DNA of 15,767 bases. It comes from a virus (lineage: Duplodnaviria > Heunggongvirae > Uroviricota > Caudoviricetes). The stretch lies in IMG/VR virus record IMGVR_UViG_2700989171_000012; one strand, given 5' to 3'. Shown piece by piece: positions 6,001 through 9,000 of this stretch; position 1 is the first letter of the stretch, and each line of letters begins with the position of its first letter. The position numbers are program-made.

Positions 6001-9000
6001 TGCCACGCTGACAGAGCGGGAGATTGCCGAAGCGGAACAGGTAACAACAATCAACGTTAAAACCGGAGAGGTGGAATCATGAGCGAACCAAAATTTGGTG
6101 AAAAATTTTACAAGCACAACGGACGGATCACGATTCTGCAAATAAGCGCAGCTACACCAGGCTGGTGGGTTGAAACAGACGAAGGATCCTCACCCGTGGC
6201 ATCATGGGAGCTTTGTGTGCTTAGTTACCCTGACCGCGATGTGTATCAGGATATTCTGCCTGTGATATCCACTGACAAAGGCATGAAACCCGTAGACATC
6301 AAAAACATGGGGTTTCAGTGCGTAATGCTCACTGAAAAAATGATGGAAGAGATGAAAAAGAACAATGCCGGATCGCTTCACTGAGGTGGCAATATGACAG
6401 CACAAATTGCAGCTTACGGGCAGCTGGTGGGCGACCCGCTGGTAAAACAGAGCAGCAAGGGCACACCGGAGCCGCCAACGGAGAACTACGCAGACCTGAG
6501 AAATGCAGTAAATCGCACTTACGCAGACATGGGGCTGAGCAAATTAGCAGAGTAGGAATATCAGAACCACACCACGCAGCCGGAGCAATCCGGCTTTTTG
6601 TTATTTTTTGTAAATTATTTGTTCGTGGTTGTTCCACGTTGTTCACTGAGCGGATCGGCATATTTTACCCGAACTGAATCATGATTATTCTCGCCCGTGG
6701 TGCCAGGACGCTGGGGCCACTTTCCCGCCTGTTAATGTGCTCGCCAATATTCATTACCAGGCGGGAAAACGATCGGTGCGATTACTGATTTCCTTATGAA
6801 AAACGGTTGAGTGTTTGCCGCGTCCTGGAGTTCCTTACTTAACCCCAGGACTTTTTTTATGCAGAGAATAATCGAATTACGCCAGCAGAAAACCGCCATT
6901 AAAAATCAGATGCGCGACATGCTGGAGAACGCTGAAAAAGAAAACCGCAGTCTTAACGATGCTGAGGGCGCAAAATTTGACGAATTACGCGCTAAAGCTG
7001 AATCCCTCGATAAAGACATTTCCCGCCTTGAAGCCATTGCAGACGAAGAGCGCAGCAAGCCAGGTAAAAGCAGCCAGACCACTGACCCCGCAGAACTACG
7101 TAACTACATTCTGACCGGTGAAACCCGCGCATTAAGTACAGGCGTTCCCGCTGATGGTGGTTATACCGTTATCCCTGAACTGAACACCGAAATCATGCGA
7201 ATGCTGGCGGATGAATCCACCATGCGTCGCATCTGTACCGTGAAGAAAATCAGCAGCAACGAGTTTAAGCAGCTTGTTTCCGCTGGCGGTGCGACCGTTA
7301 ACCACGGTGAAGAGGGTAAGGCACGCGAACAGACCAGCACCCCGCAGATTAACGAGGTGAGCATTAAGCTGTATCCGGTCTATGCGTACCCGCGCACCAC
7401 ACAGGAAATCGTGGATTTTTCCGATGTGGACATCCTTTCATGGCTGACGGGTGAGATTGGCGACACCTTCACGGAAACCGAAGAAAGCGATCTGGTTGTG
7501 GGCGACGGTGACAAAAAAGCAAAAGGTTTTTTATCCGTACCCCGTGCAGAGAAGAACGACAAAGAGCGTGATTTTGGTACGTTGCAGGTAATTAAACCTT
7601 CCGAATCTCTGGCGTGGACATCTGCGGACCCGCTGATCGACCTGAAATTTGCATTACGTAAAAAATACCGCAAAAACGCGGTCTGAGTGGTTAACTCCAC
7701 GACGGCGGCAAAACTTCAGAAGGTGAAGAACGCGAACGGTGATTATATCTGGCGCGACCGTTTACAGGCGGGTGATCCTGATACGTTGCTGGGCCTTCCG
7801 GTCGAATATCTGGAGTTTATGCCTGATAACGTTATTGCCCTGGGTGACTTCAAACGCGGTTACTACATTGTTGATCACGAAACAGGTGTTCGCACCAGAC
7901 CGGACAACCTGACAGAACCAGGATTCATCAAAATTTTCACGCAAAAATATTTAGGCGGTGGCGTGGTGGATTCGAACGCGATCAAGATTCTGGCACTGCC
8001 GGAAGACGACGATTAACAGCATACAGAAGGGGCTAAAAAGCCCCTTTAGTGTTTTATGGGTGAAAAAATTATGAAGAGTATGGAAATCCGGTCATCGGAA
8101 ATCACCACCAGCGGAGCCGGTACGCTGACGGGCTACGTTGTTCGCTGGGATAAGCTTTCAGAACTGTTATGGGGTGAGTTTTACGAAAAATTCCAGCGGG
8201 GGGCGTTTACTGAATGGCTTGCGGCGGGTAATGACGTTCGCGGCCTGTATGAGCATGACCACAGCATGTTACTGGGGCGCACCCGTTCCGGCACGCTGAA
8301 ACTGGAAGAGGACGAAACAGGGTTACGCTTTGAACTGACCCCACCGGATACCAGTACAGGGCGCGACGTTATCGAACTGGTTAAGCGTGGGGACATCTCG
8401 GGGATGAGCTTTGGCTTTCGCTCCCGTAAGGATGTATGGGATACCACAACAGATCCATGCGTGCGCACCGTGCTGGTGGCGGAACTGTACGAAATTACCG
8501 TTACATCGGTACCGGCTTACCCCGATTCCGGCGTGGAGCTGGCCCGCCGTTCCCTGTATGAGCAGCACCCCGAAAAAATGCCGCGTGCGGATAATCGCCG
8601 CTGGTGGGCGGATTTAGCGGGGGTGTGATATGTGGCCTTTCAGACGAAAAAAAGAGCAGCGCAGCATGACGCTTGATGAATTTATGGCGCTGGCCGGCAC
8701 ATCGAACACGGGGGCGGGTGAGTACGTATCATCTGGGACAGCGGAATCACTCCCCGCCGTCATGAACGCCGTCACGGTCATCTCTGACGCGGTGGCTACC
8801 ATGCCGTGTTACCTGTACCTGGTACGCAATGAGAAGGGGAAGGAGGCCCGCGAATGGCTTGATTCTCATCCGGTCGATCACATCCTCAACGAGCGCCCGA
8901 ACGCGTGGCAGACACCCTACCAGTTTAAGCGAATGATGATCCGCTACTGCCTGTTAAGTGGTAATGCTTATGCGGTTATTCAGTGGGGGCGTGATGGTTT

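What the first reader, a model, noticed from the sequence alone, without database searches (positions are those of the whole stretch)
6822..6861. Terminator-like hairpin and U-tract run straight into the capsid start codon, with no Shine-Dalgarno
The hairpin (GTCCTGG...CCAGGAC) plus T7 ends at 6858 and the capsid ATG is at 6859. So either the packaging module is transcribed by read-through and needs antitermination, or the hairpin lies in the 5' leader and gates translation. With the strong terminator at 6579-6609 upstream, the head module looks transcriptionally insulated from the replication module.
Basis: partly seen in the sequence, partly recalled or inferred. Interest (0 to 1): 0.5.

Follow-up and report, generated by a model that had tools for sequence, protein, structure and literature searches.

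The report
Leader hairpin before satellite capsid gene
The hairpin and run of Ts in front of the capsid gene are real and conserved: they end a roughly 160-base structured leader, made from its own promoter, at the head of the capsid-and-packaging operon of a phage satellite (a capsid-forming PICI), and most likely act as a brake on transcription and translation rather than as a signal needing a special antiterminator.

Summary
The window is a decayed EcCIEDL933/OI-51-type capsid-forming PICI next to phoQ, identical over the capsid region to Shigella flexneri SFBU1023.

**Observation.** The hairpin (6822-6851, -14.1 kcal/mol), T7 (6852-6858) and capsid ATG (6859) are as described. "No Shine-Dalgarno" is only partly right: a weak AGGA (6847-6850) lies inside the 3' arm.

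**Context, from 59 distinct related leaders.** These features are conserved:
- a terminator closing the upstream module;
- a box plus phased TTGTT repeats (6606-6644);
- a weak sigma-70 promoter: TTTACC 6664-6669, 16 nt, TATTCT 6686-6691;
- a 5' hairpin H1 with a GACG loop (6697-6720);
- a long middle hairpin;
- a final hairpin abutting the ATG.

**What varies.** EDL933-type leaders always carry T7 or T8 after the last hairpin. A second leader type keeps a hairpin 4-5 nt before the ATG but has no T run.

**Reading.** The element lies in the operon's own 5' leader. I read it as a partial intrinsic terminator that also occludes the ribosome site. No antiterminator gene was found, and published work shows alpA overexpression alone yields capsids. 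The mechanism is inferred, not shown. It is a new member of a known kind, of moderate interest.

The parts
6578..6609 (+). Intrinsic terminator closing the replication/accessory module (stem AGCCGGA/TCCGGCT, then TTTTTGTTATTTTTT)
   Evidence: d = +37. Homology with most E. coli relatives begins just here. L063 and L019 carry unrelated strong terminators at the same place. L001 has two identical copies flanking a 363-bp cassette that the window lacks.
6606..6644 (+). Upstream element: box TTTTGTAAATTATTTGT followed by TTGTTC repeated every 10 bp. Presumed activator (AlpA) binding region.
   Evidence: The box lies 87-89 nt upstream of H1 in nearly all of 59 distinct leaders. The 39-bp stretch is the only part shared with a second E. 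coli cf-PICI lineage, L019. It is 90% identical between the window and L063, against 45-56% in the spacers. The repeats are far more frequent than chance: 11 matches against 1.9 expected.
6664..6669 (+). Predicted -35 hexamer TTTACC of the packaging-operon promoter
   Evidence: TTTAC(A/T/C) or TTTTCT is conserved at a fixed position in all leader types, while the 16-nt spacer varies freely. 5 of 6 bases are identical in L063.
6686..6691 (+). Predicted -10 hexamer TATTCT. The inferred transcript start is about 6697-6699.
   Evidence: It aligns with TATCTT of the second leader type, and both lie 5 nt before H1. 6 of 6 bases are identical in L063. At 8 of 12 matches to consensus it fell below the threshold of the scan, so it is a weak promoter.
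6697..6720 (+). H1: 5'-terminal leader hairpin GTGGTGCCAG-GACG-CTGGGGCCAC
   Evidence: -15.6 kcal/mol. The second leader type has GTGGCACTCA-GACG-TGAGCCGCCAC, with the same outer stem and loop but a different inner stem that is still paired. The closing G-C becomes G-U in both leader types.
6721..6768 (+). Hmid: 17-bp interrupted hairpin (arms 6721-6737 and 6752-6768)
   Evidence: repeat I1; -23.5 kcal/mol. Stems are 88% identical and the loop 21% identical between the window and L063. The equivalent helix of the second leader type has 9 pairs with compensatory changes.
6771..6790 (+). H3: small hairpin in the consensus fold of EDL933-type leaders
   Evidence: alignment A3. Weakly supported: only wobble-type changes.
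6822..6851 (+). H-last: the hairpin of the finding (GTCCTGG/CCAGGAC plus inner GTT/AAC)
   Evidence: (repeat I3). The arms are 100% and 86% identical in L063 while the loop is 44% identical. Of 24 distinct EDL933-type leader variants, two weaken the stem and two strengthen it.
6847..6850 (+). AGGA, the only Shine-Dalgarno-like sequence. It lies inside the 3' arm, 8 nt before the ATG.
   Evidence: duplex with the anti-SD, -4.0 kcal/mol.
6852..6858 (+). T7 (U7) tract. It serves both as the terminator tail and as the spacer between AGGA and the ATG.
   Evidence: T7 or T8 in all 24 distinct EDL933-type leaders, including the divergent L063. Absent from all leaders of the second type.
6859..8016 (+). 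HK97-type major capsid gene, first gene of the packaging operon. In this copy it is interrupted by TGA at 7684-7686.
   Evidence: Pfam Phage_capsid on both halves. W276 is TGG in 62 of the 63 related copies that matched the flanking probe and TGA only in the Shigella locus L002, which is identical to the window here.
8026..8047 (+). GC-rich hairpin after the capsid gene (3' stabiliser or partial terminator)
   Evidence: A hairpin of the form GGGGC-loop-GCCCC plus T-rich tail is present after the capsid gene in almost all the leader types examined.
1278..1322 (-). Second array of phased TTGTT repeats, between int and alpA
   Evidence: The same arrangement occurs in L001, L019 and L021. AlpA is known to activate its own promoter.
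14164..14189 (+). Third array of phased TTGTT repeats, near the right end of the island
   Evidence: L021 and L001 show a fourth array on the left, upstream of int, which lies outside this window.

Best explanation
The element is the last stem-loop of a roughly 160-nt structured 5' leader of the packaging operon of a capsid-forming PICI. The operon runs capsid, protease, portal, connectors, HNH, TerS, TerL.

The proposed sequence of events:
1. Transcription starts at about 6697-6699 from a weak sigma-70 promoter (TTTACC, 16 nt, TATTCT).
2. That promoter lies just downstream of phased TTGTT repeats. The same repeats occur at both island ends and in the alpA promoter region, so they are most likely bound by the island's AlpA protein, an excisionase-type activator.
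3. The nascent leader folds into H1, Hmid and small hairpins, and finally into GUCCUGG...CCAGGAC followed by U7 and AUG.

The last hairpin then does two things:
- It is a moderately strong intrinsic terminator, so it stops a fraction of transcripts at 6852-6858, just short of the start codon. In this sense it is a leader attenuator.
- On transcripts that read through, it holds the only SD-like AGGA in its 3' arm and sits 7 nt from the AUG, so it lowers translation initiation of the capsid gene.

The net effect is a passive brake. It keeps capsid and nuclease/terminase expression off while the island is quiescent, and lets the operon through when the promoter fires strongly after induction. No dedicated antiterminator is needed.

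Status of each step:
- Shown: the hairpin, the U tract, their conservation, and the conserved leader architecture.
- Inferred: the promoter and start site (comparative footprint), AlpA binding (site distribution plus literature), termination and ribosome-site occlusion (general rules).

In this particular Shigella copy the operon is already defective.
For: Element and island:
- Hairpin and U7 are real and unusual for the window.
- The island is an EcCIEDL933/OI-51-type cf-PICI.
- The stretch 6600-6880 is covered at 80% or more in 360 of 5426 complete E. coli genomes, mostly at 95-99% identity.

Leader and promoter:
- The leader architecture is conserved in 59 distinct leaders, with a fixed 87-89 nt from box to H1 and conserved hexamers around a variable 16-nt spacer.
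- Footprint of the window against L063 (capsid 69% identical): repeats 0.90, -35 0.83, -10 1.0, stems 0.83-1.0, U tract 1.0, against loops 0.21-0.44 and linkers 0.45-0.56.
- The upstream gene is divergent in L065 and L076.
- RNA-level selection: 9 compensatory pairs in the middle helix, and only wobble-compatible one-sided changes on the + strand in H1 and H-last.

Hairpin at the start codon:
- A hairpin abuts the ATG in both leader types although the stem sequences differ.
- T7/T8 is invariant in the EDL933 type.
- A Pantoea cf-PICI has a separate hairpin plus T6 in its leader.
- The weak SD lies inside the arm.

Regulators:
- TTGTT arrays occur at four places per island.
- AlpA belongs to the Phage_AlpA excisionase/regulator family and activates its own promoter.
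- alpA overexpression alone gives capsids.
Against: - No transcript data: the start site, termination and translation effects are all predictions.
- The second leader type keeps the hairpin but has no U tract, so termination cannot be the ancestral or shared function. The shared function could be something else, such as stability, insulation or a protein site.
- H-last itself shows no compensatory changes within either type. Its support is therefore conservation plus wobble changes plus two different stems at one position.
- A brake on the most abundantly needed virion protein is counter-intuitive. A -14 kcal/mol hairpin over a weak SD predicts very poor translation, which suggests an unrecognised activating step.
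- AlpA binding to the repeats is untested. Arm-type integrase sites are an alternative for the arrays at the island ends.
Confidence: 0.55

Rival explanations
1. Positive or neutral leader element. The hairpin mainly insulates the start region from the structured leader and protects the mRNA. The U7 tract acts as a ribosomal protein S1 landing site that compensates for the weak SD. Termination in vivo is negligible.
For: - The hairpin, but not the U tract, is conserved across both leader types, so the common function is not termination.
- The capsid protein is needed in large amounts.
- The loops are A/U- and pyrimidine-rich, with a recurring UUAAC.
- H1 at the very 5' end resembles known stabilising 5' hairpins.
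Against: - A 7+3 bp, -14 kcal/mol hairpin directly followed by U7-8 meets the usual criteria for an intrinsic terminator.
- The SD-like AGGA is paired in the stem, which is hard to reconcile with enhancement.
- The U tract is strictly T7/T8 in all EDL933-type variants.
Confidence: 0.2
2. Regulated switch. A trans-acting factor, or an alternative fold of the leader, opens or stabilises the hairpin, so that termination and translation respond to a signal. Candidate factors are a PICI protein, unassembled capsid/scaffold protein, an RNA chaperone such as the ProQ/FinO protein encoded next to the leader in L019, or a helper-phage product.
For: - H1 and the 5' arm of H-last are nearly invariant in sequence, not just in pairing.
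- A 9-nt stretch of H1 (CCAGGACGC, 6703-6711) is complementary to GCGTCCTGG (6820-6828). The second leader type has a different 7-8-nt complementarity (AGACGTGA/TCACGTCT) between the same two elements.
- This alternative helix is the minimum-energy fold of transcripts ending at 6830-6836, before the 3' arm is made.
- A brake on a highly expressed gene calls for a release mechanism.
Against: - The full-length minimum-energy fold and the ensemble keep H1 plus H-last; the alternative pairs have probability about 0.
- The alternative helix is an intermediate fold in L019 and L078 but not in L003 or L004.
- Variants in the 5' arm (L019, L078) are not compensated in H1.
- No candidate factor was identified. 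The conserved small protein phrog_1957 has no informative fold match and is not always next to the leader.
- alpA alone suffices for capsid production.
Confidence: 0.15
3. There is no promoter in between. The hairpin is a second terminator for transcripts coming from the replication/accessory module, and the operon is expressed by antiterminated read-through.
For: - Gram-negative PICIs are described as transcribed unidirectionally rightward from alpA.
- The predicted promoter is weak, at 8 of 12 matches, and was not listed by the scan.
Against: - Conserved hexamers lie at fixed spacing around a freely varying spacer.
- The upstream gene is divergent in L065 and L076.
- A strong terminator sits immediately upstream in several unrelated versions.
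- No antiterminator family was found among the island's proteins.
- The P. aeruginosa AlpA antiterminator is unrelated to PICI AlpA.
Confidence: 0.07
4. DNA-level element. The inverted repeats (H1, H-last) are operators for a DNA-binding protein, and the RNA fold is incidental.
For: - H1 and the 5' arm of H-last contain the same hexamer in opposite orientation: GGACGC/GCGTCC here, GACGTG/CACGTC in the second type.
- Both are nearly invariant.
Against: - One-sided changes are of the G-C to G-U or U-A to U-G kind on the + strand only. That preserves RNA pairing but breaks DNA symmetry.
- The middle helix shows RNA-type covariation.
- Arms 16 bp apart are unusual for an operator.
Confidence: 0.03

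Closest known systems
Promoter-proximal leader terminators bypassed by processive antiterminators (lambda pR'-tR' with Q; P. aeruginosa PalpB-tB with AlpA)
   Same: A promoter is followed within about 50-200 nt by an intrinsic terminator ahead of late, lysis or structural genes, and an activator-type site lies at the promoter (layout as; own knowledge for lambda).
   Different: - No Q-like or P. aeruginosa AlpA-like protein is encoded here.
- PICI AlpA is a 62-aa excisionase-family protein.
- No helper factor is needed for capsid production.
- Here the terminator abuts the start codon and contains the SD.
E. coli S10 ribosomal-protein operon leader (L4-mediated attenuation and translational control)
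   Same: One leader hairpin region just upstream of the first gene affects both transcription termination and translation initiation (own knowledge, not tested here).
   Different: The S10 leader is controlled by a known protein (L4, with NusA). No regulator is known here, and there is no sequence or Rfam similarity.
SD-sequestering hairpins and translational operators (for example the MS2 replicase operator, RNA thermometers, riboswitch expression platforms)
   Same: The ribosome binding site is paired in a local hairpin next to the start codon.
   Different: - No ligand, protein or temperature logic was identified.
- The SD is weak.
- The U tract adds terminator character.
Satellite phage P4 immunity (CI RNA with seqA/seqC causing premature termination in a leader)
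   Same: A phage satellite with a P4-type integrase, a Vis/AlpA-type protein and an alpha-type primase, and a structured leader with internal complementarities linked to termination (own knowledge; gene content).
   Different: - This is a different operon (early genes in P4, the capsid operon here).
- There is no match to any Rfam family, including C4/CI-type RNAs.
- The complementarity here is weakly supported.
HK022 put RNAs (cis-acting leader RNAs that make RNA polymerase termination-resistant)
   Same: Two stable stem-loops early in a phage-type transcript, upstream of terminators (own knowledge).
   Different: No sequence or Rfam similarity. There is no evidence that H1/Hmid act on polymerase.

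Membership tests
Intrinsic (Rho-independent) terminator | G+C-rich stem of about 5-14 bp with a short loop | tested here: met
   7 bp (5 G-C) plus a 3-bp inner extension across a 1x1 mismatch, with an 8-nt apical loop; -14.1 kcal/mol. The loop is at the upper limit, so efficiency is probably moderate.
Intrinsic (Rho-independent) terminator | Run of U directly after the stem | tested here: met
   T7 starts at the base after the stem. T7/T8 occurs in all 24 distinct EDL933-type leaders. The composite score is d = +14, third of 552 sites.
Intrinsic (Rho-independent) terminator | Lies in a transcribed region on the same strand | tested here: inconclusive
   A conserved promoter footprint lies about 130 nt upstream on the + strand, but there are no transcript data.
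Intrinsic (Rho-independent) terminator | Transcripts end in the U tract | not testable with these tools
   Needs Term-seq, northern blots or in vitro transcription.
Transcription attenuator with competing antiterminator helix | An upstream segment can pair with the 5' arm of the terminator in a mutually exclusive helix | tested here: inconclusive
   9-nt complementarity of 6703-6711 with 6820-6828, and a different 7-8-nt one in the second leader type. It is the minimum-energy fold only for truncated transcripts. It is absent from the full-length ensemble and from the intermediates of L003 and L004.
SD-sequestering translational hairpin | The Shine-Dalgarno sequence and/or start codon is paired in a stable local structure | tested here: met
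   AGGA 6847-6850 pairs with UCCU 6823-6826, and the AUG lies 7 nt from the stem. The second leader type has a weak GGA/GAG in the 3' arm and the AUG 4-5 nt from the stem.
SD-sequestering translational hairpin | Structure lowers translation; relief by a defined signal | not testable with these tools
   Needs translational fusions and toeprinting.
Q-type or P. aeruginosa AlpA-type processive antitermination module | A cognate antiterminator protein is encoded by the element or required from a helper | tested here: not met
   No such family among the island proteins. PICI AlpA is PF05930, 62 aa, whereas P. aeruginosa AlpA is a Q21-like fold with an HTH near residues 128-142. alpA overexpression alone gives capsids.
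Any described RNA family (Rfam 15) | Match to a covariance model at the gathering score | tested here: not met
   No hit in the whole window. Only chance-level hits at E up to 10 in 6400-7000.
Capsid-forming PICI (cf-PICI), context of the element | int, alpA and primase, plus HK97-type capsid, protease, portal, connectors, HNH, TerS and TerL, with no tail or lysis genes, about 15 kb | tested here: met
   Same layout as O157:H7 OI-51/CP-933C = EcCIEDL933.

The most novel reading that the evidence does not exclude
The whole leader (H1 with its invariant GACG loop, the covarying middle hairpin and the start-codon hairpin) is an undescribed cis-regulatory RNA of phage satellites. It would switch between two folds, using the complementarity between H1 and the 5' arm of the last hairpin. 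In that way it would couple both termination and translation of the satellite's capsid operon to a signal from the island, the host or the helper phage.
Probability: 0.15. Interest if true: 0.7.

Novelty: new member of a known kind. Interest (0 to 1): 0.4.

Why it matters
Capsid-forming PICIs build their own capsids and take only tails from helper phages. How and when their packaging operon is switched on has not been described in the papers I could read.

This analysis gives that operon three testable features:
- a defined promoter region;
- a likely AlpA-binding array that it shares with the alpA promoter and the island ends;
- a conserved structured leader ending in a terminator-like hairpin that overlaps the ribosome site.

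These are directly testable handles for the timing and level of satellite capsid production. They also matter for engineering such islands as DNA-delivery particles. The element itself follows familiar principles, so the gain is in the satellite's biology rather than in a new mechanism.

Tried and rejected
- **Rfam.** Nothing at gathering thresholds in the window, and only chance hits in 6400-7000.
- **Phage collection.** No DNA similarity to 6577-6900.
- **Esr41.** I asked whether the leader ending at U7/8 is this known EHEC sRNA (about 70 nt, GC palindrome plus poly-U). Rejected: Esr41 is in SpLE1/OI-43.
- **Hfq-bound EcOnc sRNAs.** A text search of both supplementary files found no mention of SpLE2, ECs158x or ECs159x. 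I read only the part of Table S2 held in part 5 of the file.
- **PICI AlpA as an antiterminator like P. aeruginosa AlpA.** Rejected: the proteins are unrelated and share only the name.
- **A repeated hairpin/U-run/ATG design at the protease gene (8026-8056).** Rejected: comparison with relatives indicates the protease starts at ATG 8071, with a GGGTGA ribosome site, so the annotated start is probably 5 codons too early.
- **An upstream promoter TTGTTC-16-TATTTT (6639-6666).** Set aside in favour of TTTACC-16-TATTCT, which aligns with the promoter of the second leader type.
- **Long-range pairing 6683-6692 with 6864-6873** (repeat I2; seen in the fold). It would lie upstream of the inferred start site and is weakened in O157 and L063, so I did not pursue it.
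- **Leader peptide or N-terminal extension.** Leader lengths differ in frame between relatives and the window leader is closed. Rejected.
- **RfaH ops element.** By eye, no GGCGGTAG-type site in the leader.
- **Metagenome scan with the 16-nt box.** 120 rows, nearly all chance matches; only 2 true leaders, both EDL933-type.
- **The small conserved protein phrog_1957 as a candidate regulator.** Confident model (pLDDT 85.5) but no PDB fold match, and it is not always adjacent to the leader.
- **Alternative H1/H-last helix.** Inconclusive.
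Full report
**1. What the window is**

Protein family searches identify the island's genes:
- a P4-type integrase (1-1230);
- a 62-aa Phage_AlpA protein (1605-1793);
- a DUF4222 protein (3471-3770);
- a D5-type primase (3767-5515);
- a short PerC-like ORF (6394-6555);
- an HK97-type packaging module: capsid 6859-8016, prohead protease 8056-8628, portal 8630-9841, head completion and connector proteins, HNH 10526-10966, TerS 11211-11570, TerL 11554-13215;
- phoQ on the other strand, after the island.

This is the layout of the capsid-forming PICI EcCIEDL933. That element is O-island 51 / CP-933C of E. coli O157:H7. Over the capsid region the window is identical to Shigella flexneri SFBU1023.

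**2. The observation**

The sequence reads GTCCTGGAGTTCCTTACTTAACCCCAGGAC TTTTTTT ATG at 6822-6861.
- The local fold is this hairpin at -14.1 kcal/mol, z = -3.0.
- With a d'Aubenton-Carafa-type score written for this purpose, it ranks third of 552 T-run sites in the window. It is second on the + strand, after the terminator at 6578-6595.
- The ATG is the real start. The N-terminus is conserved from the first residue in relatives with unrelated upstream DNA.
- 'No Shine-Dalgarno' needs qualifying. AGGA at 6847-6850 gives a weak match to the anti-SD (-4.0 kcal/mol), with the C and the seven Us as an 8-nt spacer. It is paired in the stem.

**3. Conservation**

The stretch 6600-6880 is covered at 80% or more in 360 of 5426 complete E. 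coli genomes, mostly at 95-99% identity. Similarity to most of them starts at about 6575, at the upstream terminator, so the intergenic region travels with the capsid module.

Relatives were collected from three sources: one genome per species, viral contigs and annotated E. coli genomes. Together they gave 59 distinct leaders. Two main types appear:
- **Type A.** This includes the window, O157:H7 and a divergent member, L063, whose capsid is 69% identical. It has GTCCTG(G)/(C)CAGGAC followed by T7 or T8 in all 24 distinct variants. Two variants weaken the stem; two strengthen it, for example CC to TT, which gives an 11-bp stem.
- **Type B.** This includes a second E. coli lineage (L019), Citrobacter, Erwinia and others. 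It has a different hairpin, (T)GGTTTC-A-CGT ... ACG-(A)-GAAACC(A), at -10 to -16 kcal/mol. It ends 4-5 nt before the ATG and has no T run.

L019 shares CGTCCTG..CTTAACC with type A, so the two types are probably homologous. Other lineages differ:
- A Pantoea MAG has a separate hairpin plus T6 ending 45 nt before the ATG (d = +11.2).
- Pasteurellaceae and Gilliamella relatives have an ordinary SD and no hairpin.

**4. The surroundings: a promoter and a structured leader**

All type A and B leaders share the same order of elements.
1. A box TTTTGTAAATTATTTGT, here at 6606-6622, usually followed by TTGTTC repeats every 10 bp.
2. TTTAC(A/T/C) or TTTTCT, a 16-nt spacer that differs freely between elements, then TAT(C/T)(T/C)T. 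Here these are TTTACC 6664-6669 and TATTCT 6686-6691.
3. Five nucleotides later, a hairpin H1 with a GACG loop, here 6697-6720. The box-to-H1 distance is 87-89 nt in all but one leader.
4. A long middle hairpin, here 6721-6768.
5. The hairpin at the ATG.

The pairwise footprint of the window against L063 separates these elements from their surroundings:

| Element | Identity |
|---|---|
| Box and repeats | 0.90 |
| -35 hexamer | 0.83 |
| -10 hexamer | 1.00 |
| H1 | 0.83 |
| Middle hairpin, stems | 0.88 |
| H-last 5' arm / 3' arm | 1.00 / 0.86 |
| U tract | 1.00 |
| Promoter spacer | 0.56 |
| Loops | 0.21 and 0.44 |
| Linkers | about 0.45 |

Further points support an independent promoter:
- In L065 and L076 the gene immediately upstream is on the other strand, so the operon cannot be expressed by read-through there.
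- L063 and L019 carry different strong terminators where the window has 6578-6609.
- The promoter is weak, at 8 of 12 matches, and was not listed. That fits dependence on an activator.

**5. RNA-level evidence**

- In type B, the closing helix of the middle hairpin has 9 pairs with compensatory changes.
- H1 is nearly invariant within each type. Between types the outer stem and the GACG loop stay the same while the inner stem changes from CCAG/CTGG to CTCA/TGAG.
- One-sided changes are wobble-compatible on the + strand: G-C to G-U at the H1 closing pair in both types, and U-A to U-G in H-last.
- H-last has no compensatory change within either type: 96% paired, 6 of 10 pairs never vary, and no pair changes on both sides. 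Its structural support is therefore indirect.
- No Rfam family matches.

**6. Who drives the promoter**

Phased TTGTT arrays occur at four places per island:
- on the attL side, seen in L021 and L001 and outside this window;
- between int and alpA (1278-1322, minus strand);
- upstream of the capsid leader (6619-6644);
- near the right end (14164-14189).

AlpA is an excisionase-family regulator. It activates its own promoter and is required for induction, and its overexpression is used to make tail-less EcCIEDL933 capsids. The simplest reading is that AlpA binds these arrays and activates the packaging promoter. This is an inference. Integrase arm sites are an alternative for the arrays at the island ends.

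**7. How the hairpin most likely works**

By the usual rules a -14 kcal/mol hairpin followed at once by U7-8 will terminate part of the transcripts. The same hairpin pairs the only SD-like sequence and sits 7 nt from the AUG. I therefore favour a passive double brake, attenuation plus ribosome-site occlusion, in the operon's own leader (confidence 0.55).

Three arguments favour a passive brake over a dedicated antitermination system:
- No antiterminator family is encoded in the island.
- The P. aeruginosa AlpA antiterminator is an unrelated Q-like protein.
- No helper phage is needed for capsid production.

Two points argue against the brake as the whole story:
- Type B lacks the U tract, so the shared function is not termination.
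- Strong occlusion of the capsid start is odd for the most abundant virion protein.

**8. The possible switch**

CCAGGACGC in H1 (6703-6711) is complementary to GCGTCCTGG (6820-6828). Type B has a different complementarity, AGACGTGA/TCACGTCT, between the same two elements. For transcripts ending at 6830-6836 this helix is the minimum-energy fold. Once the 3' arm exists, H1 plus H-last wins by about 11 kcal/mol and the alternative pairs have probability near zero. In type B the intermediate appears in L019 and L078 but not in L003 or L004. I treat this as unexplained and give a regulated switch 0.15.

**9. State of this copy**

The capsid gene carries TGA in place of W276 (7684-7686). Among the 63 related copies that matched the flanking probe, only the Shigella locus shares it. 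Relative to the near-identical L001, a 363-bp cassette holding a conserved 74-aa gene (phrog_1957) is missing between two identical terminator copies. The element is therefore probably no longer functional in this genome. The regulatory reading applies to the family.

**10. Verdict**

The need for antitermination is not supported. The element is a new, undescribed example of a familiar kind of cis-regulatory leader, and the mechanism still needs experiments.

Noticed in passing
window 7684-7686: In-frame TGA replaces Trp276 (TGG) of the major capsid gene. Of 63 related copies that matched the flanking probe, only the identical Shigella flexneri locus L002 shares it. This copy of the island is probably defective.
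   Followed up: yes
window 6578-6609 compared with L001 8160-8600: L001 has two identical terminator hairpins (CAGCCGGAGCAATCCGGCTTTTT) flanking a 363-bp cassette that holds a 74-aa gene. The window has one copy and lacks the cassette, which suggests deletion by recombination between the repeats.
   Followed up: yes
window 1278-1322 (-), 6619-6644 (+), 14164-14189 (+); L021 377-401 (+): Arrays of TTGTT repeated every 10 bp lie at four places per island: both ends, the int-alpA spacer, and upstream of the capsid leader. They are candidate binding sites of AlpA, or of the integrase arm domain.
   Followed up: partly
window 8056-8075: The annotated protease start (ATG 8056, directly after a hairpin and a T-rich run, with no SD) is probably 5 codons too early. 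Relatives align from ATG 8071, which follows GGGTGA.
   Followed up: yes
window 1937-1967, minus strand: This is the best terminator-like site of the whole window (d = +44). It lies on the minus strand inside the + strand ORF 1851-2597: GCGGCTCCATTTCGGGGCCGC, T7, then an ATG opening only a 37-codon ORF. Its purpose is unknown; it could be the end of an antisense transcript.
   Followed up: partly
window 3471-3770: This 99-aa DUF4222 protein lies just upstream of the primase. By island type, size and gene order it probably corresponds to RgdR (ECs1581), a regulator of LEE and motility described for OI-51. No sequence comparison with ECs1581 was run.
   Followed up: partly
L021 7744-7968; L019 6712-6960; L065 1457-1717 (absent from the window): A conserved small protein (74-86 aa, phrog_1957, no Pfam or NCBIfam match) lies at the end of the replication module of many cf-PICIs. 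The AlphaFold model is confident (pLDDT 85.5; two helices, a three-stranded sheet, then a long helix) but has no PDB fold match.
   Followed up: partly
L019 6191-6721: The second E. coli cf-PICI lineage encodes a ProQ/FinO-family RNA-binding protein just upstream of its packaging leader. It could act on leader or terminator hairpins.
   Followed up: no
window 6394-6555: The PerC-like ORF is only 53 aa and matches just positions 50-77 of the 90-position Pfam profile. O157:H7 carries a full 90-aa PchE-type gene at this place.
   Followed up: partly
window 6787-6796 and 6828-6837: Two copies of (A/T)TTCCTTA, which resembles the 3' end of 16S rRNA. One lies in the linker and one in the loop of the last hairpin (repeat D3). 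Type B leaders have a CCTCC-rich stretch just upstream of their last hairpin. Meaning unknown.
   Followed up: no
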